From assembly GCF_009914755.1 (NCBI RefSeq), contig NC_060947.1: a stretch of 64,000 bases of DNA; one strand, written 5' to 3'. Position 1 is the stretch's first letter; each line of letters opens with the position of its first letter. The position numbers were made by a program, and so were the translations under genes. This DNA comes from the human T2T-CHM13v2.0 reference genome, Homo sapiens. Shown in pieces: positions 25,172 to 44,755 of this stretch. Below the pieces are notes generated by a model. The model was given only the letters and a program-made list of their open reading frames with translations. It was not told the origin of the DNA and did no database searches.

Positions 25172-25780
25172 GGCCTGAGTTCAGGCTGATGCAGCTGTAG
25201 CTGCTGCCTGGGCAAGGAGGGATAGGGAGACTAGGCCATCCTATGAGTATCCTATGCTGTAGCTTGGGATTCCTCTCACTGGCAGGAGTATGGGTCCTTC
25301 AGGGACTCCAGAATTGTTCTGAAACAACTTTGGTGTTTCATCTTAATATGCTGCACACATTTGTCAGTACTGGCCATATTCACCAAATTAAAAAATTAAT
25401 TTTACATCCTGTGAATATCTTATGCTACAGCTTATCCTATGGATATCTAGAACAATACCCATAGCTCTGCAACAGGCTGCTGTGAGACTGAGATGTGGGT
25501 GAACCACACTCCCAACAGCTCTTTGCCCATGCTGCTTGCCTGGGCAATACCCTGCCCTCCTTGGTCATAGGCCTAAGGTGTCATTTTGAGAATTTAATGC
25601 TGAGCTGTATCCTACCCTCAGCCTGAGTTTGGGCTGACACAACTGCAGCCACTGCCTAGCCAAGGAGGGACAGGGAATCCAGACTCTCCTATGTATACCC
25701 AGGACAATACCCAATGCTCTGCTGTGGGCTACTGTGAGACTGAGACTCAAGTGGCCCACTCTCCCCACATCTTCTCTTGC
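25172..25780. repeat. Degenerate direct repeats, probably old L1 5'UTR monomers
   Basis: cctgagtt..ggctga...caaggaggga.aggga at 25173 and 25622; acaatacc...ctgtgagactgaga at ~25452 and ~25704. Confidence 0.5.
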
Positions 25781-26849
25781 AAGTGAACAAGAGACGGTGT
25801 ATATCCTGCTGATGCAGGGCTGAAGTTTCAAGTGGCTCCCCACCCCCCACCTCTGGAAATCACATCTTATCTCCTATATTCTTGGGGCCTTCAGTGACAG
25901 TAAACTAGCCTGAGATGATGGGTAAAAGTCAAGAGTGACCCCTTTCTTTCCTTATCAATGGCATGCCTTTTAATAGAGTCCTTCTGGAGAGAAAGCTGTT
26001 CCCAAAACCTAGCATCCCCTTCCTGTAGTCTTCTATCTACACCTTTAGGTCTCATTGGTGCTTCAAATGGAAGTAAATGCAGTCTCTCCTTCCATAAACT
26101 GTCCCTAAGAGGGGCACCCCAGTCCCTGGACTTCAGATCAGTACTCCCCTTGGGCCCCATATGTAATCATCATCCCTAGATAATCTCACCTCAAGCCTGC
26201 CTCTGTGTTCCTTTTCCTCATTCTCACTGCCGCCACCCAGGGTCAGGCCCTCCTTTTCCTGAGTTGGTGGATGGGAAATAGGCTATTTGATGGAATGCAT
26301 GTTTCTGGCGATGACATTCTGCTCAAAACCTTCCAAGGACCCTGTAAAACCAGCTTATGTCATCTCCTTATGAAGCCTTCCTTGCCCCCTGCTTCTCAGA
26401 GCAGAATTGACCCTCTCCCCCTTGTGTCTCTCCTGTGCTTCATGTAGACTCGTCTCATACCATCTTTTCCTCTTTACTGCAGTGAATTGTTAGCCAGCTG
26501 CTTCACCTCTAGACTAGCAGGCCTTGAGGGTTGGATCATGTCATTTTTTATGTCCAGTACCTTAAAAAGTACCTGACTTTCATCAACGTATCAATACCTA
26601 TAGTTGGTTCTTATTACTTATCCAAAACAATCCAAGACTCTTGTTCTGTCATTAACAGTCACCAGCATGTCCCTTCATCAGTCCACCATATGTCCCATCC
26701 ACTCCCAGCCAGGCTGAGTGCCCCTGGGTGCCCCTGTTAGCACATGTCTGGGACCACCTAAAGGGTCCTGGAGAAAGGCCTCTAAATGGTAATGTTTAGT
26801 ACATGATGGCAGATTGTACTTAAAATGTTAGATGTTAGAATATAATTAA

Positions 26850-27080
26850 CTGGCGGGTCTAGAGCCAGACCACCTAGCTCAATCTCCCTTCTACCACTTA
26901 CTAACTGTGACTTGGGAAATAATATCACCTTAACCTCTTCATGCCTTAGTTTCTTCCCTGGCAAAAAAAGGTACCAATAATAGTACCTATCTCATAAAGG
27001 TTTTTTGAGGGTTAGATTGATATAGATAAAGCTCTGAAAAAACCTTGTCACATAGTAAGCATTTAGTTAATTCTGATTAT
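26850..27080. mobile_element. MIR SINE
   Basis: ctaccacttactaactgtgacttggg...ttaacctcttcatgccttagtttc...ataatagtacctatctcata. Confidence 0.8.
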
Positions 27081-27134
27081 TATTGAGTGTCTGCTATATG
27101 TCAGCCACAATGCTAGAAACTTGACATATATTAC

Positions 27135-27952
27135 TGAAATGGCAAAAGTTCCCTTGTCCCCCTCATAGGGCGGGCAGTGGAGGAGTGGCTCGCTTCTTCA
27201 GTGCCCCGTTGCTTCAGTGCCCTGCTGCTCAAACCTCTAGGGGGAGCATGCAGATGGGCAGGCTGTGGGGCTCCGACCCCACAGCAGTGTCTAGGGTTGA
27301 ATGTTTACAGCTGAAGCTCCAGTGGGCATGTGTTACAGGGTGTTCTTTTAGTTTAGCCGTCTGTAGGCGGCTTGTGTTAACTCAATTAGACCCCTGCCTT
27401 ATCACAAGGACAGAGGGCTTTCTGTATCCCAGAGTTCTTGCCTTAGTGTACTGGAAGAATCGGATAACATGTGGGCTTGGAGAATGAGTGCAAGGTTTTA
27501 TTGAGTGGAAGTAGCTCTCAGCAGATGGGGGAGCCAGAAGATAGATGGTTTTCCCCTGGAGTTGGGCTGCTTGGCGGCCTAGGCTCTCCTCCAATTGCTG
27601 CCTTGTTCCACCTGTCGATGGCCTGCTGTCCTGCCAGCATCTGTCGTGTGCTCTTCCCCCGGTATGCTCCCCTCGATGTCCTCTCGACGTCCAGCCATTC
27701 ATGTCTTCTTCCACCGATGTATTTCTCTCAACTTCCAGCCGCTTGTGTGCCTGCCTGCTAGGGCCTCGGGGTTTTTATAGGCACAGGATGGGGGCGTGGC
27801 AGGCCAGGGTGGTCTTGGGAAATGCAACATTTGGGCGAGAATGCAGGAGTGTCTGTCCTCACCTAGGTCAGTGGGCACAGGCCGAGGGTGGAGCCCTCAC
27901 CAGGGACCACGACCTTCCCTTCCCAGCACTTCCCTTCCCCCTTTCCATATCA
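27135..27952 (-). mobile_element. ERV1 solo LTR (LTR27/LTR28-like), inserted in a MIR
   Basis: TG...CA termini (TGATATGGAAAGGGGGAAGGGAAGTGCTGGG on the minus strand); 4-bp TSD ttac at 27131-27134 and 27953-27956. Confidence 0.85.
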
Positions 27953-29351
27953 TTACTTCTAATCCTTACAACACTGGAAGCGGGCAGTACTTTCTTCCTT
28001 CAACCAGTGAAAGGGCTGAAGTGCATAGAGATTAAGTACCTGTCTCAAATTCACATGGTCAGGACATTTTGAAGCAAGGATTTGAATCTACTTACGTGGT
28101 TTTTGCCATACCTGTACTATTATTTACTAAATAGCCTTTAATTTGGCTCCTTTTCCTTTAAATAAATATATTAATAAATCTAAACTTCATTTCATTTTCA
28201 CAAACAAGTTTGATGTGTTCACTAATTCTCCATATTCACATTAAAATAAGTTTACAACTGTTAAATGTTTGTCCGTATTTCACCTAAAAATATCAGATAT
28301 TCCACAGTAATTAGTAAAAATATTACATATTCCACAGTACATAGTACTGAGCCACGATGCCTAGCTTGTTTTTATTTATATGCATTTCACAAGAATAAAG
28401 TAATCACTTAACTTATAAATTAAAAGGACTTTAAAAGCAATCTATGCCAGGAATCAGTAGGCTTCAATTTTTATGCCAATTTTGAGGAATTGACAATGGC
28501 TGCCCAGAATAAATACTGTGTTGGACACAATAAGAAATAACACCATGCTCTCTGTGCACTGTAGGCCCAGGAGGCTGGAGTAAGGGGATCGGCCACATAT
28601 TTGCCATTCTTTGTCTAGTCCAATCCACTCAACTTTTCAGAGATGATGCCCCATTAACTCTTCTTCCTCCCACCGCCATTCCTTTACTGGATAACCAGGA
28701 GAGTCATATTTTACCAAGAGACACTAGTAAATAAGCAAGGAAGGAGATGGGCAACTCCCTTGATTCTGCAATGATGGCAGCTTAGGAGACACACAGGGAA
28801 CCTAGGGCCATCAAGAAGACAATTAAAAGGGCTGACAGATGATGTGCTGGATAGTACATCCAGGCAAGGAGAGTAGAAAAACATCAAGGAGCTGTAACAG
28901 CCAGACACAATAGGATTCTGGCAAGTAAATATTGTTTAATGTGATGACTGTGTACTAAACCTGAAGTCAGCATTTAGCCCCTGTTGATAAGCCAGCAGGA
29001 TGCCTCTAAGTGCTTACTGGGAATCTTGCATATATATATTTTCCTGCTCCAACACATACTTAAGGCAGACACTGGGTTGTGGTAAGGGATCTCTTTTATG
29101 GCTATTTACTTGGGCCAAGTAGTTATGCCCATGCAGACAAGCCTCTACTTATTTGGTCTCATTTGAAGTATTAAAAAAAAAATTCTCCTACTGATTCTCC
29201 CTCTATAATTCTTCCTATCCTTTCTGTTGTTAAAAGGAAGGGAAGTTTGTTCAGTGGTTAGGATCTCTCCAAAATCTACAAGAGAAGAGTCAGAGGCCCT
29301 TCTTCTTCTGGCAAGACTAGATCCCTTTTTCAGAAAACATCTAAAAGATCA

Positions 29352-29902
29352 CAGTTCAGAAAAGCGTTAACATAGCCGACTTGAAAACTGCTATCCTTAG
29401 AAAACCCTGCTTAGAAGGTTGGCCTTTGGGCTGACATCTGGAAACTTAGATTTCATAAGACTCTCACCATTCACTGGCAAGAATGACTCACTGTACCTGA
29501 ACTGTGCAAATATGGTTTATGCTGAACACTCACTTTCCTTCTGGGAGTCTGGAATTTGGGTACATGCCAGGCAGAGGCAGGTAGAGAGGGCATACCCCAG
29601 GCCCCAGTAAAAAACCTGGGCACTGAGTCCCTAACGGGCTTTCCTGATGGCAACATTTCACACATGTTGTCACAACTCATTGCTGGGAAATTTAAGAGTG
29701 TCCTTTGCGACAACATTAGGAAAGGACCCCTGGAAATTTGCACCTAACTTACCCTGGACATGCACCTGTTCCCTTTGCTGATTTTTATCTGAATCCTTTC
29801 ACTGTAATAAATAATCGCTGTGAGTGGGACTATACATTGAGTCCTATGAGTCCCTCCAGGGGATCGTGGAACCAGGAGCAGACCAGGGGAATCCACTGAC
29901 AC
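29352..29902 (+). mobile_element. MER21-like LTR
   Basis: gttaacatagc...actgctatccttagaaa...ctgggagtctggaatttgggtac...aataaa...gacaca. Confidence 0.75.
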
Positions 29903-30604
29903 AAACACTTTTGCTTTTCTGTGTTCTGGGAATATAAATAGATGGGTCATGGCCAGAAAACAAACAAAAATTGAGCTAAAAATATTAAATTTAACTCTAA
30001 AGTGTGAACTCCATAATCATCAACTAGAGAGCTGATCTATGTCTTGGACAAGTGGGGAAACATCGTGAATTTCTTGTAGCAATTGGAGAAGGGGTATTTT
30101 GTCCTTGAAAAACATCATTCAATTTATGATCTGATCTTGTACAGAAGGAGAGAAGGTTGCTATATAAATAAATGCTAGTTAACACAAATAACCTCTCTTG
30201 AAGTAGAACCACCTCCAAACTAGAAAACTAAGATTCCTCCCTGCTTTTTTATAAAGGCTCTGCCTTCCATAAAGGCATTTAGAAAACCTTAGACCCGAAA
30301 GGGAGCTCAGAGCTCATCATTCCCTCTCCTCTCAGTATAGAAATCCTCTTTAGAACATTCCTATCAGGTTATCTCTTGAGCACTTCCCGTTCACCCAATG
30401 CTTCTCAAAAATTTTCTCCAAACTACCCTAAGAAAATGACTCTTATTGGCAGAGTAGTTACAGGTATAGTTCAAATCAAATTTGAAAAGATAAATATCTC
30501 TGAACATACCTTGCTTTTCCTTAAAATTTATCTGATTTTTGCTATTTCCTCACATGTCTGTGTTTTGTGGAGATATTCATCACTATTTTAAAAAGCATGC
30601 TTCA

Positions 30605-30897
30605 GGCCAGGCACCGTGGCTCACGCCTGTCATCCCAGCATTTTGGGAGGCCAAAGCAGGAGAATCAATTGAGCCCAGGAGTTGGGGACCAGCCAGGGCA
30701 AAATAGCAAGACCTTGTTTCTACTAAAAGTAATTTTTAAAAAACTTAGCCAGGTGTGGTAGCACATGCCTGTACTCCCACCTACTAGGGAGGCTGAGGTG
30801 GGAGGATAGATTTAGCCTGGGAGATTGAGGCTGCAGTGAGGTTTGAGCTCCATTGCACTCTAGCCTGAGAGACAGAAAAAGAGCTTGTCAAAAAAAG
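30605..30897 (+). mobile_element. AluJ abutting the cryptic repeat
   Basis: Dimeric Alu with J diagnostics and a short A tail; possible degenerate TSD aaaagcatgcttca / aaaagccatgtca. Confidence 0.9.
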
Positions 30898-30898
30898 C

Positions 30899-31863
30899 CA
30901 TGTCACACACATGTGAGACACGTGTCACACAGGTGTCAGTCACGAGTCACACACATCAGTCACATGTCAGTGTAACAAACATGTCAGTCATGAGTCAGAC
31001 ACATCACACGTGTCATCATGTGTCACTTAAGTGTCACAGACATGTCACACACGTGTCAGTCATGTCACTCATGTGCCACACATGTCAGACACATGTCAGT
31101 CATGTATCATGCACATGTCCTCCACGTGTCACACCCGTATCACACATGCCTCAAACGTGTCACTTGTCAGTCACGTGTCACACGTGCCAGTCACATGTCA
31201 GACACGTGTCACACACGCGTCACTCGTGTGACAGGTGAATGACAGGTGACTGACACGTGTTTGGCTGTGACTGACAGGTGTCTGACGTGATTGACAGGTA
31301 TCTGACACGTGTGACACATGACTGACACATGTGTGGTGTGTGTGGCACGTGTGTGGCGTGTGAATGGCATGTATGTGGTGTGTGACTGACAGGTGACTGG
31401 CACGTGACTGACACATGTGACATGTATCTGCCACGTGTGTGATACATGTGACATGTGACTGACACGTGTGTGTGGCACATTACTGCCAGGTGACTGATGT
31501 GTTTGGCTGTGACTGACATGTGACTGACACGTGTGACATGTGTGTGACATGTGACTGGCCCATGTGTGACACGGGTGTGGAGCTTGTGTGGCAGGTGTGT
31601 GGCATGTGAGTGACACCTATGTGATGTGACTGACACGTGTTTTACACGTGACTGATGTGCATGACAGGTGACTGACATATGATTGACGTGTGTGACACGT
31701 GGCTGACAAGTGACTGACACACGACTGACACATGGGTGACACTTGGCTGGCAAGTGTGTGGCACATGACTGATGTGTGTGACACGTGACTGATGTGTGTG
31801 AGCTGTGTGTGACCCATGACTGACCCATGACTGACCCCTGTGTGACCCATGTGTGACCTGTGT
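30899..31863. repeat. Orientation-switching cryptic repeat of CACGTG / TGACTGACA / GTGTGACA words (quasi-palindrome)
   Basis: The left arm has TGTCAGTCA (~5 copies) and TGTCACAC. The right arm has their reverse complements TGACTGACA (~11 copies) and GTGTGACA. The switch is at ~31220. About 18 CACGTG by manual count. Confidence 0.9.
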
Positions 31864-32002
31864 CCAGCTAATTTTTGTATTTTTATTAGAGACAGGGTTT
31901 CACCATGTTGGCCAGGATAGTCTCAATCTCTTGACCTCGTTATCTGCCCATCTCGGCCTCCCAAATTGGTCGGTTTACAGGCGTGAGCCACCACAGCTGG
32001 CC
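31864..32002 (-). mobile_element. Left monomer of an AluSc-like element; right monomer and tail are missing
   Basis: ccagctaatttttgtattttt...caggatagtctcaatctcttgacctcgt...gagccaccacagctggcc. Confidence 0.9.
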
Positions 32003-32384
32003 TCAAATAATATTCTCTTGGAAAGGAGAATGGATGTATAGGTGGATATTCCTCCAAGAAGTGGTAGATACACAAAGTCATAATAGTTTCTCTTGGAGAT
32101 TTCTCCCTACACGGCTTTGGCTCACAGCATGCATTGTTAAGAGGATTCTGGAAACTTGACATTGACCTTCTTGTGTTTTAGAGACATTAAAACAAAGAAG
32201 GCTTCCTTTTTCTACTTTTTACTCAGGAAACTTAGAGTATTTGGTAACATAAAATATTGGGTTCTAGGGACATAACTGTCCCTGGGATAACTGCTCTAGA
32301 GCCTGAGAATTGATTTTTTTTTTAAATTTGATGAAATGGCATAGGATAAGAATATAGACAGCTTCTTGTCTATGTTGCTTACCT

Positions 32385-34627
32385 GAGAGGGGCCCCACCC
32401 TCTCTGGTCACAAAATGGTCCATAGCTAGGACCATTTTGAGAGTTTAGAGACATTGTTTGGTGACCTGGCAGTGGCAACCACAACAGCCATTTTAGTCTT
32501 GCGCCAGAGATTGGAGAGCTTGCTGTGGAGCCAGGGAAGGGCTCTCATAGCCAGAATTGAGTGATGAGTGTGGACAGCGCCTCAGCAGTAGGCACTGGTA
32601 TTAGTCTCTCTCCCATCATAGGACTGGAGTGGGAGGAGAGTTGCTGAAGCTGAGGTTTCTCCCAGATGGTAAGACTTGCAGCCTGGGACATCTTTGCGAC
32701 CTGGAACCAATCTATATGTGTCATTACTAGGCGGCCCAGCCTGCTCCCTTGGTCAGTTGGAAGATGGTCCCCCACCAGTTCTGAGGAGCATGAGGGAGAT
32801 GGACCCCACTCCCCTGGAGATCTAATCCATGGCATGTTCTGACCCAAGGGAGGGTGGGCACAGCCAGCCAAACCCCTCCTTGGGTCAAAGTAAACACAAG
32901 TGCAGCACCAGCTGCTGAAGGCAGCACCACCAAAGCCCGGGAACAAACATGGAAAGGGGGTCATCTCCTGTCCCCTCATTCCCCTCCTCAGTGCACTGTT
33001 GCAGACTCAGCAGTGGCTCTTCGCATCAGGGCCTGGGGAGCATGGGCTAAAAGAAACCCCTTCTTGGGTTTCTCCAGCAGCTCCACCCCCGTGAAGGCAA
33101 ACACACACTGGAGGAGGGTGCTTGTCACACCTCTCCATTGCCTCCATTCCGGCCCCTACTTGCCAGCTCTTACTCTTAAATATCACTTACTGAGTTGCAG
33201 CCTAAATTATACTACCAAACAAAATTACATCACTACAACAAGCAACATCTGAGAAAGCCACAACTGCATGAACCTATCTGTAACTAAGGAACTAGTACAG
33301 AGCCTTGGTACCCTGAAAGCACCCAGAAAAGAAGGCAATAGATCATACACAATATACACCACAGTCATACCTCCAAGGGAGAAAGAATAAAAAATCAAGA
33401 AGCCCTATCCAAACAACAGCAAATTAAAAAAAAAAAAAGTGCCAGCTCTCTCAGATGAGAAGAAACTAGCATGAGTTTCTCCAGTAATAAAACATGCCAG
33501 AGTGTGTTGTCACCTCCAAAGGATCCCACTAGCTCCCAAGCAATGTATCCTGACCAGAATGGAATGTCTGAAATGGCAGATATAGGATTCAGAATATGAA
33601 TCACAAATAAACTCAATGAGATCCAAGAGAAAGTTGAAATCCAACCCTAAGAAGCCAGAAAAATGATCCAAGGTTGGAAGGACAACATAGACATATTAAG
33701 AAACAACCAAACAGAACTTGTGGAATTGAAAAACTCACTACTAAAACTTCAAAATACAGGTAGAAGCCTTAACAACACACTAGACCAAGTAGAAGAAAGA
33801 ATTTCAGAGCTCAAAGATTGGTCCTTCAAATCAACCCAGTCAGACAAAAATAAAGAAAAAAGAATTTTAAAGAAAATGAACAAAGCCTTTGAGAAACATG
33901 GGTTATGTAAAGCAAACAAATCTATGACTTTTTGGCACTTGTAAGAGAGAAGAGAAAGTAAGCAACTTGGAAAACATATTTGAGATATAGTCCAGCAAAA
34001 TTTCCCAAATCTTGCTAGATAGGTCAACATGTAGATACAAGAAATCTAGAGAACTCCTGCAAGATACTATAGAAGATGACCATCTCCAAGACACTTATTC
34101 ATCAGAAGATCCAAGGTCAATGTAAAAGAAAAAAACCCAAAAATCAGTTAGAGAAAAGGGTCATTTTACCTATAAAGGGAAACTCATAAGACTAACAGCA
34201 AACTTCTCAGCAGAAACCTTACAAGCCAGAAGAGATCGGGGGCCCATTTTTAGCATTCTTAAGGAACAGAAATGCCAGCCAAGAATTCCATATCCTGCCA
34301 AACTAAGCTGCATAAATGAAGGAGAGATAAAGTCTTTCCCAAACAAGCAGTCACTAAGGGAATTTTTCATCACCAGACTGGCCCTATGAGAGATGCTTAA
34401 GGAAACGCTAAACATGGAAATGAAAGAATGATACTTGCTATCACAAAAGCACATGCAAGCACGTAGCCCACAGACCCTATAAAGCAACTACATATTAGAG
34501 ACTACAAAGCAACTTAACTAACAACACTCCAACAAGAACAAAACCTCACATATCAGTATTAATCTTGAATGTAAATGGCCTCCAGTTAAAAGACACAGAG
34601 TGGCAAATTGGATTTAAAAAACAGACC
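32385..34627 (+). mobile_element. Old primate L1 (L1PA16/17-like): 5'UTR, ORF1 and ORF2 start; left boundary approximate
   Basis: ORF1-like peptide at 33663-33944 (NQTELVELKNSL...DQVEERISELKD); gccaagaattccatatcctgccaaactaagc; continues at 40751. Confidence 0.8.

Positions 34628-44755
<10,128 letters not shown>

What the first reader, a model, noticed from the sequence alone, without database searches (positions are those of the whole stretch)
30605..32002. ~960-bp mirror-switching repeat between two inverted Alus forms a ~1.4-kb hairpin-capable module
Seen: 30899-31863 matches no TE I recognise and is not a simple tandem repeat. It is a shuffled mosaic of a few words (approx. GTGACTGACAC, GTGTGACAC, CACGTG) whose polarity flips at ~31220, where tgtcacac (31207-14) and gtgtgaca (31226-33) close an 11-nt loop. 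Specific rare variants recur inverted across the arms: 31129-31148 vs 31561-31580 (18/20, shared cccg) and 30946-30962 vs 31766-31782 (17/17). The block starts at the A tail of a plus AluJ. It ends inside a minus AluSc-like element that has lost its right monomer, tail and TSD. The layout Alu+/arm+/arm-/Alu- is one long imperfect inverted repeat. Inference: the block arose after the AluSc insertion by iterative fold-back, template-switch synthesis (polymerase-theta/MMBIR-like) at a break between inverted Alus. If transcribed, it would fold into long dsRNA, a potential ADAR, Dicer or MDA5 substrate, and it may extrude as a cruciform.
Basis: partly seen in the sequence, partly recalled or inferred. 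Interest (0 to 1): 0.85.

Follow-up and report, generated by a model that had tools for sequence, protein, structure and literature searches.

The report
Inverted minisatellite scar between two Alus
A worn 11-base tandem repeat on human chromosome X has its left third flipped, most likely when a piece of chromosome 11 was copied into an old LINE-1, which left a hairpin-prone but probably functionless rearrangement scar.

Summary
Window 30899-31863 is a degenerate 11-nt minisatellite (unit GTGACTGACAC, 8 of 11 bases equal to its own reverse complement). It has one clean polarity switch at about 31220. The left arm has 29 GTCA and 0 TGAC; the right arm has 54 TGAC and 0 GTCA. It lies between a full plus-strand Alu and a minus-strand half Alu, and it is predicted to fold as one long imperfect hairpin.

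The proposed origin is only partly right. The block is part of a 6.6-kb piece of chromosome 11 (7.3% substitution divergence, the only other copy in the genome). That piece was inserted, with a roughly 10-bp target duplication, into the 5' part of an old LINE-1 on chrX. The chr11 donor has the same half Alu, cut at the same base, and the same array. There the array runs in one polarity only and lies about 6.5 kb from the AluJ.

So the right arm and the Alu truncation were inherited. Only the 324-bp left arm is specific to chrX. It sits exactly where 6.2 kb of donor DNA is missing. I read it as a single fold-back or strand-switch inverted duplication at the array edge, not as iterative synthesis between inverted Alus. 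No transcript, editing or function is shown. This is a known kind of scar, of low to moderate interest.

The parts
25257..25403 (+). Small second piece of chr11 donor DNA (chr11:102655367-102655519, same strand). It is inserted in the same old LINE-1 in the opposite orientation to the main piece and shares 34 donor bases with the main piece's end.
   Evidence: 141/147 identical. It is flanked by a roughly 20-bp duplication of the LINE-1 target, with 8/9 microhomology at the entry junction (read from the sequences printed).
25767..25776 (.). Left copy of the roughly 10-bp target-site duplication of the main insertion. The right copy is at 32358-32367.
   Evidence: Both sides align to the same roughly 10 bases of the intact repeat copies.
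25778..30604 (+). Mostly unique DNA copied from chr11 (minus strand, 102668166 downwards).
   Evidence: 5146-column alignment at 91.45%, with substitution divergence 348/4786 = 7.3%. It is the only other full copy in the genome.
30605..30898 (+). It came with the chr11 piece, and its A tail is the left breakpoint.
   Evidence: SRP-model hits for both monomers. The chr11 homologue differs at 23/291 positions. Homology to chr11 ends inside the A tail.
30899..31222 (.). Left arm: 324 bp of the minisatellite in GTCA polarity. It is the inverted, chrX-specific arm.
   Evidence: 29 GTCA and 0 TGAC. It is absent from chr11. Its best hit in the genome is the distal part of the chr11 array up to its edge.
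31207..31233 (.). Polarity switch: an 8-bp stem (31207-14 with 31226-33) around an 11-nt loop. An inner GTCAC/GTGAC pair surrounds a loop of 4 nt.
31226..31863 (.). Right arm: 638 bp in TGAC polarity, inherited from the chr11 array. It contains an internal direct duplication with a 244-bp offset (31243-31411 vs 31487-31655, 78%).
   Evidence: 54 TGAC and 0 GTCA. It is collinear with the whole chr11 array, 382/472 identical.
31864..32002 (-). Left monomer plus linker of an AluS-type element (subfamily from recalled diagnostic positions only). It is cut at the same base in chrX and chr11.
   Evidence: The junction sequence is shared with chr11. There is one SRP-model hit only. It differs from the chr11 copy at 25/138 positions.
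32003..32340 (+). Right flank copied from chr11 (down to 102655486).
   Evidence: 25/336 substitutions.
32341..32357 (.). 17-nt filler between the donor DNA and the target duplication. It is not a poly(A) tail.
   Evidence: There is no second copy in the window or in 40 kb of chr11 at up to 3 mismatches.
32358..33598 (+). Continuation of the old LINE-1 5' region that was split by the insertion. Its other half is 25428-25776.
   Evidence: The two halves are contiguous in 5 of 5 copies fetched from chr12, chr2, chr13, chr4 and chr6. A LINE-1 ORF1 domain remnant lies downstream at 34126-34389.

Best explanation
The block is an old, CpG-decayed minisatellite with a quasi-palindromic 11-nt unit and a single inverted arm. 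I propose the following sequence of events.

The array, already joined to a 3'-truncated AluS, existed on chromosome 11 in one polarity. About 12.7 kb (today's length) of that locus was copied at the DNA level into the 5' region of an old LINE-1 on chrX. The date is roughly the time of the ape/Old World monkey ancestor.

In the chrX copy, the 6.2 kb between the AluJ tail and the distal edge of the array is missing. In its place sits an inverted copy of about 300 bp of the distal array.

The most likely mechanism is a single fold-back or strand switch. A 3' end at the edge of the hairpin-prone array annealed back on its own or the sister strand through the self-complementary units, and was extended for about 300 nt. 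It was then joined to the AluJ A tail. This happened either during the multi-junction copying event itself (template-switching replication) or soon after it.

Shown: the paralogy, the direction chr11 to chrX, the shared Alu/array junction, the absence of the inverted arm and the presence of the 6.2 kb on chr11, and the predicted hairpin.

Inferred: the fold-back chemistry, the single-event timing and the date.

The module has no demonstrated function. It is best read as a fixed rearrangement scar that happens to place two Alus and two repeat arms in inverted order.
For: (1) The same Alu/array junction and the same flanks occur on chr11. Window 25778-30895 matches chr11:102668166-102663062 at 91.45% over 5146 columns. 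No third full copy exists.

(2) ChrX is the acceptor. Window 25776 and 32358 are adjacent, with about 10 bases overlapping, in 5 of 5 other copies of the split repeat.

(3) The chr11 array has one polarity only. It abuts unique DNA. That 6.2 kb has no other copy in the genome, apart from two short repeats inside it.

(4) The left arm's best hit in the genome is chr11:102656207-102656497, which ends at the distal edge of the donor array (151 bits). The chrX right arm scores 134 bits.

(5) The distal 330 nt of the donor array align to the right arm from position 25 (261/323, 80.8%) and to the reverse-complemented left arm from position 12 (231/285, 81.1%). The two arms are 234/301 (77.7%) identical to each other. 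Both arms therefore seem to start at the centre with the donor's edge, and the three copies are about equally distant.

(6) The insertion as a whole is complex. A second donor piece lies in the opposite orientation, shares 34 bases with the main piece, and has microhomology and small target duplications at its junctions.

(7) The unit matches its own reverse complement at 8 of 11 bases. Even the one-polarity chr11 array folds at -0.32 to -0.38 kcal/mol per nt, so self-annealing of a resected end is plausible.

(8) Fold-back formation of inverted duplications next to deletions is an established mechanism (PMC3907307, abstract read; PMC11724301, start of abstract in a search listing).
Against: No outgroup genome could be examined, so the order of events rests on two paralogues.

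The mapping of the left arm onto a particular part of the array is weak. Its alignment score against the chr11 array (134) lies inside the range of 200 shuffles of 22-nt chunks (mean 119.3, maximum 138). Against the right arm it scores 132, where the shuffle maximum is 128. Thirds of the arm map to scattered places.

The central palindromic diagonal is no better than other registers.

The right arm is 100 bp longer than the donor array, and the arms are unequal, so later expansion has to be assumed.

The left arm shares fewer exact 16-mers with either relative (9 and 9) than those two share with each other (39). The set sizes differ (308, 601 and 481 distinct 16-mers), which accounts for part of this. 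The count would also fit an arm older than the duplication.

The small second piece is 4.1% diverged (6/147) against 7.3% for the main piece. The numbers are too small to decide whether it belongs to the same event.
Confidence: 0.65

Rival explanations
1. The inverted arm already existed in the chr11 donor, which then read AluJ, 6.2 kb, inverted arm, array. ChrX later lost the 6.2 kb by a plain deletion. Chr11 later lost the inverted arm, as unstable palindromes often lose one arm.
For: The left arm is no closer to the chrX right arm (77.7%) than to the chr11 array (81.1%). It shares fewer 16-mers with either (9 and 9) than they share with each other (39).
Against: It needs two independent deletions with breakpoints exactly at the arm's two ends. 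On chr11 the array abuts unique DNA with no remnant of opposite polarity. The left end of the arm on chrX coincides with the deletion junction in the AluJ tail.
Confidence: 0.12
2. Breakage and rejoining without new synthesis. Three double-strand breaks occurred: in the AluJ tail, at the array edge and inside the array. The 6.2-kb fragment was lost and the distal array fragment was religated upside down by end joining. Both arms then changed length by slippage.
For: The left arm resembles the distal part of the donor array and has no good match to its Alu-proximal 180 nt (scores 23 and 23.5 against 43 and 44.5 for the right arm). Only 1-2 bases of microhomology are seen at the A-tail junction.
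Against: The right arm alone is collinear with the whole donor array, positions 1-527 of 538, so the left arm looks like an extra copy rather than a moved part. The total array length is 962 bp on chrX against 538 bp on chr11. Other junctions of the same insertion carry re-copied donor and target bases, which end joining alone does not give.
Confidence: 0.12
3. One reading: the whole 960-bp block was built on the spot, after an AluS insertion on chrX, by repeated fold-back or template-switch synthesis at a break between two inverted Alus.
For: The layout Alu+/arm/arm/Alu- and the fold-back-like centre.
Against: The array and the truncated Alu are present in one polarity on chr11, about 6.5 kb from the AluJ. 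ChrX is the acceptor of a copy. There is one polarity switch, not many. Similar arrays exist on chr7 without flanking inverted Alus.
Confidence: 0.04
4. The inverted arrangement is kept by selection because the locus is transcribed and the long hairpin acts as a source of small RNAs or edited dsRNA.
For: The predicted hairpin is strong (z = -7.6; 271 of 378 pairs join the arms). There are weak miRNA-precursor-like hits at the centre (MIR4371, 37.6 bits).
Against: Those hits are far below the gathering score of 110. No gene is annotated in the window (annotation given with the task). The arms have decayed to about 78% identity, there is no helix of 20 bp or more, and 44 of 378 pairs are G-U. 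I did not look for compensatory change.
Confidence: 0.03

Closest known systems
Fold-back inverted duplications next to deletions (Hermetz et al. 2014, PMC3907307, abstract read; yeast fold-back inversions, PMC7467729, start of abstract in a search listing only)
   Same: An inverted and a non-inverted copy lie side by side with a short unpaired spacer. Short inverted sequences sit at the turn. Loss of the adjoining DNA occurred. The intermediate proposed there is intrastrand pairing of a broken end.
   Different: The scale is about 300 bp rather than kilobases to megabases. It is interstitial and fixed in the germ line. It lies inside a tandem repeat whose own unit supplies the self-complementarity. 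It is about 7% old, so the arms are no longer mirror images.
Templated inverted insertions at double-strand breaks (PMC11724301, start of abstract in search listings) and short-range template switching in ape genomes (PMC7954356, start of abstract in a search listing)
   Same: An inverted copy of nearby sequence is inserted at a junction, with microhomology, by a strand switch of a polymerase.
   Different: Those events are mostly 5-34 bp or mutation-cluster sized. Here the inverted copy is about 300 bp and is combined with a 6.2-kb loss and an interchromosomal copy.
Motif inversion inside tandem-repeat arrays (VAMPIRE preprint, 10.1101/2025.06.15.659631, passages read)
   Same: [quoted passage not shown]
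   Different: The cases described there are mainly megabase satellite and centromere inversions. This one is a sub-kilobase minisatellite with a quasi-palindromic unit.
Palindromic AT-rich repeats (PATRRs) and other fragile palindromes (PMC7999016, search listing only; details recalled)
   Same: A few-hundred-bp inverted repeat with almost no spacer that could form a hairpin or cruciform.
   Different: It is not AT-rich (51% and 48% A+T in the two arms). The arms are about 78% alike and of unequal length. PMC10164571 (abstract read) states that distance and divergence between inverted repeats lower their instability. In its yeast single-stranded-DNA system, heterology beyond 25% suppressed it. 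This module is near that limit.
Inverted Alu pairs as dsRNA and A-to-I editing substrates (recalled; no paper read here)
   Same: Two Alus lie in opposite orientation 965 bp apart. Their left monomers are predicted to pair (96 pairs).
   Different: One partner is only a half Alu. No transcript is known to cover them.

Membership tests
Minisatellite / VNTR | Head-to-tail copies of a 10-60 nt unit | tested here: met
   TRF finds period 11 with 38.7 copies and 63% matches (31382-31792), and 18.6 copies (30899-31098). Periods of 20, 22, 31 and 42 also appear. The spacings of the polarity word peak at 4, 7 and 11.
Minisatellite / VNTR | Copy number varies between individuals | not testable with these tools
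   Only one human assembly is held.
Fold-back inverted duplication | Inverted and direct copy adjacent, with a short spacer and short inverted sequence at the turn | tested here: met
   There is one polarity switch, with an 8/8 stem around an 11-nt loop.
Fold-back inverted duplication | Loss of the DNA beyond the break | tested here: met
   6.2 kb of donor DNA (chr11:102656499-102662729) is missing exactly at the outer end of the inverted arm.
Fold-back inverted duplication | The inverted arm is a copy of the sequence next to the turn | tested here: inconclusive
   The best placements start at the centre and the donor edge. The scores are within or barely above the chunk-shuffle range, and sub-pieces map to scattered places.
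Segmental duplication (1 kb or more, 90% identity or more) | Two genomic copies of non-repeat DNA above those thresholds | tested here: met
   5146 columns at 91.45%. Exactly one other full copy exists.
LINE-1-mediated retrocopy | Target-site duplication plus a 3' poly(A) tail | tested here: not met
   A duplication of about 10 bp is present, but neither end has a poly(A) tail. The 17-nt filler has 9 A of 17.
Known RNA families (Rfam 15), including miRNA precursors | Score at or above the family's gathering score | tested here: not met
   The best non-Alu hit is MIR4371 at 37.6 bits against a gathering score of 110.
PATRR-type fragile palindrome | AT-rich, near-perfect symmetric arms | tested here: not met
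   The arms have 51% and 48% A+T, are about 78% identical, and measure 324 and 638 bp.
Inverted Alu pair acting as an editing substrate | Opposite-strand Alus close together | tested here: met
   A plus-strand Alu at 30605-30898 and a minus-strand half Alu at 31864-32002, with 96 predicted inter-Alu pairs.
Inverted Alu pair acting as an editing substrate | Both Alus lie in one transcript and show A-to-I editing | not testable with these tools
   No expression or editing data are held. No gene is annotated in the window.
Known interspersed repeat or satellite family (Dfam/Repbase) | Match to a library consensus | not testable with these tools
   No repeat library is held. The genome search with the right arm found similar long arrays (hits of about 200 nt or more) only on chr11 and at two chr7 sites, plus one 188-nt match on chr18. 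The other matches were to a roughly 55-nt stretch.

The most novel reading that the evidence does not exclude
Minisatellites built from this self-complementary, CpG-bearing 11-mer may be recurrent natural hotspots for fold-back strand switching. Two of the four long arrays found in the genome (chrX, and chr7 at 66.64 Mb) carry a short inverted arm at one edge. If so, the chrX module would still be unstable or length-polymorphic in people. It could also be a source of hairpin RNA if an unannotated transcript crosses it.
Probability: 0.15. Interest if true: 0.5.

Novelty: new member of a known kind. Interest (0 to 1): 0.3.

Why it matters
The locus is a well-preserved natural example of a sub-kilobase fold-back inverted duplication. 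It is fixed in the human germ line and can be dated against its donor copy. It lies at the edge of a repeat whose own unit can self-anneal.

It shows that what looks like a repeat built de novo between inverted Alus can be an inherited array plus one strand switch. It is also a reminder that paralogues can stand in for outgroups when breakpoints are read.

It has little bearing on gene function. Nothing shows that the hairpin is made or used in cells.

Tried and rejected
(1) I looked for one dominant palindromic diagonal between the arms. Ungapped anti-diagonals peak at only 52%. Gapped HSPs scatter over many registers. Sliding placements are flat. The source segment of the inverted arm could therefore not be pinned down.

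(2) Marker-based collinearity using the rare word CAYTTAAGTGTCAC, which the left arm and chr11 share, failed. The best alignment does not put the two copies opposite each other.

(3) I compared the array next to the half Alu with the missing Alu right monomer by eye only, using a recalled consensus. I saw no convincing likeness and ran no test.

(4) A retrocopy with a spliced-out 6.2-kb 'intron' was considered. It was rejected because there is no poly(A) tail and the inverted arm would remain unexplained.

(5) Twin priming was considered. It was rejected because only the arm is inverted, not everything 5' of the junction.

(6) The chr7 array at 66.64 Mb shares no flank with the chrX and chr11 loci. 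It is therefore not a third copy of the duplication.

(7) The Rfam scan found nothing at gathering score.

(9) A full-text search for the unit and its reverse complement found 87 papers. I saw only the listing of 10; all are unrelated by title, and I assume without checking that the words there are primers or adapters. Searches on inverted minisatellites listed no title or abstract start that describes this locus. I saw 15 and 12 listings, and the abstract starts only.
Full report
WHAT IS THERE

Window 30899-31863 is a degenerate tandem repeat. Tandem Repeats Finder reports period 11 (consensus GTGACTGACAC, 38.7 copies, 63% matches) at 31382-31792. It also reports period 11 (18.6 copies) at 30899-31098, with overlapping calls at periods 20, 22, 31 and 42.

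The unit is identical to its own reverse complement at 8 of 11 positions. Permissive self-alignments therefore give 62-67% identity in both orientations across the whole block. A reverse-complement diagonal is by itself poor evidence here.

The three positions that differ give a clean signal. GTCA occurs 29 times and TGAC never in 30899-31222. TGAC occurs 54 times and GTCA never in 31226-31863. About 1-2 of each would be expected from base composition. There is exactly one switch.

With stricter scoring, left arm against right arm gives 164 inverted and 46 direct HSPs, and all of the top 30 are inverted. The best is 83.6% over 73 nt.

The 17-mer, however, is a common word of the array. It has 5 inverted occurrences in the right arm at up to 2 mismatches.

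The right arm contains a direct internal duplication with a 244-bp offset (31243-31411 vs 31487-31655, 78%).

THE ALUS

Partial matches to the SRP RNA model mark two monomers on the plus strand (30606-30722 and 30748-30891). They mark one monomer on the minus strand (31887-32001). All are below the gathering score, as expected for Alus.

The minus-strand element aligns to the first ~145 bases of full-length Alus. The subfamily names AluJ and AluSc-like rest on recalled diagnostic positions. No repeat library was available.

FOLDING

The array as one strand has an RNA MFE of -495.9 kcal/mol. Forty dinucleotide shuffles gave -427.6 +/- 9.0 (z = -7.6). A control in which the left arm is reverse-complemented, which gives a one-polarity array, gave -404.9. 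The two arms folded separately sum to -357.4. In the MFE structure 271 of 378 pairs join the arms.

For 30605-32002 the MFE is -681.5 with RNA parameters and -352.3 with DNA parameters. The left arm pairs along the right arm, right-arm-only segments are looped out, and 96 (RNA) or 67 (DNA) pairs join the two Alus.

Per nucleotide the chrX array reaches -0.514 kcal/mol. The one-polarity chr11 array gives -0.384 and -0.320 for its two strands. The unit alone is thus already strongly self-pairing.

The duplex is poor. The longest uninterrupted helix is 18 bp, 6 of them G-U. Three helices reach 15 bp and none reaches 20 bp. 44 of 378 pairs are G-U. The longest exact inverted match is 17 nt.

THE PARALOGUE ON CHR11

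A search of the window's own genome with the right arm found a related array at chr11:102655972-102656498 (70%). It also found arrays on chr7 at 66.64 Mb and 16.53 Mb.

The chr11 locus has the same flank, the same Alu left monomer, and the same Alu/array junction at the same base.

- Window 25778-30895, which includes the plus-strand Alu, aligns to chr11:102668166-102663062 on the minus strand at 91.45% over 5146 columns.
- Window 31386-32340 aligns to chr11:102656498-102655486.
- The genome holds no third copy of 25778-30604. All other hits are to an embedded repeat of about 820 bp.

Substitution divergence:
- unique DNA: 7.3% (348/4786)
- plus-strand Alu: 7.9% (23/291)
- right flank: 7.4% (25/336)
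- half Alu: 18.1% (25/138)
- aligned array: 20.7% (98/474)

My inference is that the half Alu and the array were still CpG-rich when the copy was made and decayed independently afterwards. The older Alu had already lost its CpGs. The non-CpG K of 0.066 is close to the human-macaque neutral divergence as I recall it. The copy is therefore roughly as old as the ape/Old World monkey ancestor. This date is an inference from a recalled rate.

WHICH COPY IS THE SOURCE

Window 25428-25776 and 32358-33598 are two halves of one old interspersed repeat. In 5 of 5 copies fetched (chr12, chr2, chr13, chr4, chr6) the two halves are adjacent. About 10 bases are represented on both sides of the chrX insert, which makes a target-site duplication.

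A LINE-1 ORF1 domain remnant lies downstream at 34126-34389. The split repeat is therefore probably the 5' part of an old LINE-1. ChrX is the acceptor and chr11 the donor.

There is no poly(A) tail at either end, only a 17-nt filler of unknown origin. The copy was therefore made at the DNA level.

A second donor piece sits 374 bp upstream in the same LINE-1 (window 25257-25403 = chr11:102655367-102655519, 141/147 identical). It lies in the opposite orientation and shares 34 donor bases with the end of the main piece. It is flanked by a roughly 20-bp target duplication, and its entry junction has 8/9 microhomology. The insertion as a whole therefore has several junctions with re-copied bases. 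That pattern is expected from template-switching replication, although successive events cannot be excluded.

WHAT DIFFERS INSIDE

On chr11 the array has one polarity only. Its distal edge abuts unique DNA.

Between that edge and the AluJ tail lie 6.2 kb. Apart from two short repeats inside it, this DNA has no other copy in the genome. A younger Alu is also inserted in the AluJ tail.

On chrX the homology stops inside the A tail, the 6.2 kb is absent, and the 324-bp left arm stands in its place.

It follows that the right arm and the truncation of the AluS were inherited. The two Alus were not neighbours in the donor. Only the left arm is new.

WHERE THE LEFT ARM CAME FROM

Its best hit in the genome is chr11:102656207-102656497, on the strand opposite to the one that matches the right arm. 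That hit ends at the distal edge of the donor array (151 bits). The chrX right arm comes next at 134 bits.

The distal 330 nt of the donor array align to the right arm from position 25 (80.8%) and to the reverse-complemented left arm from position 12 (81.1%). The arms are 77.7% identical to each other.

Both arms therefore seem to begin, at the centre, with the donor's edge. That is what a fold-back at a break at the array edge would give. The three copies are about equally distant, which places the inversion near the time of the copy.

This evidence is suggestive only.
- The left-arm alignment scores lie within or barely above shuffles of 22-nt chunks (134 vs a maximum of 138; 132 vs a maximum of 128).
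- Sub-pieces map to scattered places.
- The central diagonal is not privileged.

MECHANISM

The best reading is one fold-back or strand switch. A 3' end at the edge of the self-complementary array annealed back and was extended for about 300 nt. It was then joined to the AluJ A tail, and the intervening 6.2 kb was lost. This happened either as one of the template switches of the complex copying event or shortly afterwards.

This matches the established fold-back model for inverted duplications next to deletions (PMC3907307, abstract). It also matches fold-back templated insertions at breaks (PMC11724301, start of abstract). Motif inversion inside tandem arrays is also a recognised feature (VAMPIRE preprint, passages).

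They are weighed in their own sections.

CONSEQUENCES

As single-stranded DNA or RNA the module should fold. Extrusion of a cruciform from duplex DNA is unlikely, because the arms are about 78% alike and unequal in length. PMC10164571 (abstract) states that divergence and distance lower the instability of inverted repeats. In its yeast single-stranded-DNA system, heterology beyond 25% suppressed it.

No gene is annotated in the window, and no RNA family reaches its threshold. Roles for ADAR, Dicer or MDA5 remain untested.

VERDICT

This is a new member of a known kind. Interest is 0.3.

Noticed in passing
L003 1275-2780 (chr7:66,640,117-66,641,622 of the same genome): A 1.5-kb array of the same kind of unit also has one polarity switch. 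About 125 bp in GTCA polarity lie at its left edge, next to what looks by eye like a LINE-1 3' end, followed by about 1.35 kb in TGAC polarity. A 19-mer of the chrX array occurs, at up to 1 mismatch, only in these two arrays and on both strands of each (6 sites; reversed-pattern control 1).
   Followed up: partly
L007 and L010 (chr7:16,525,857-16,531,042): A further array of similar units, at least 3.5 kb long, almost entirely in one polarity.
   Followed up: no
window 25257-25403 and 25778-32357: Two pieces of one chr11 region lie inside the same old LINE-1, 374 bp apart and in opposite orientation. They share 34 donor bases, and each is flanked by a small target duplication. This is a complex interchromosomal insertion.
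   Followed up: yes
window 31864-32002 vs chr11: The half Alu is 18.1% diverged between the two copies, while its flanks are 7.4% diverged. This suggests it was young and CpG-rich when the copy was made.
   Followed up: partly
window 27135-27955: An interspersed repeat of about 820 bp lies inside the chr11-derived DNA. It accounts for 38 of the 41 matches listed, at 77-83% identity. It was not named.
   Followed up: no
window 35558-36652 (+): A 364-codon open frame carries all three LINE-1 ORF1 domains (trimerisation, RBD-like, dsRBD-like; E-values 7e-21 to 4e-57). This is a younger LINE-1 next to the old one that received the insertion.
   Followed up: no
L013 6733-7045 (chr11:102,662,732-102,663,044): A younger Alu is inserted in the A tail of the chr11 AluJ homologue and is absent from chrX.
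   Followed up: no
window 31158-31332: The centre of the palindrome gives sub-threshold hits to miRNA-precursor models on both strands (MIR4371, 37.6 and 37.3 bits; gathering score 110). I take these as generic hairpin likeness.
   Followed up: no
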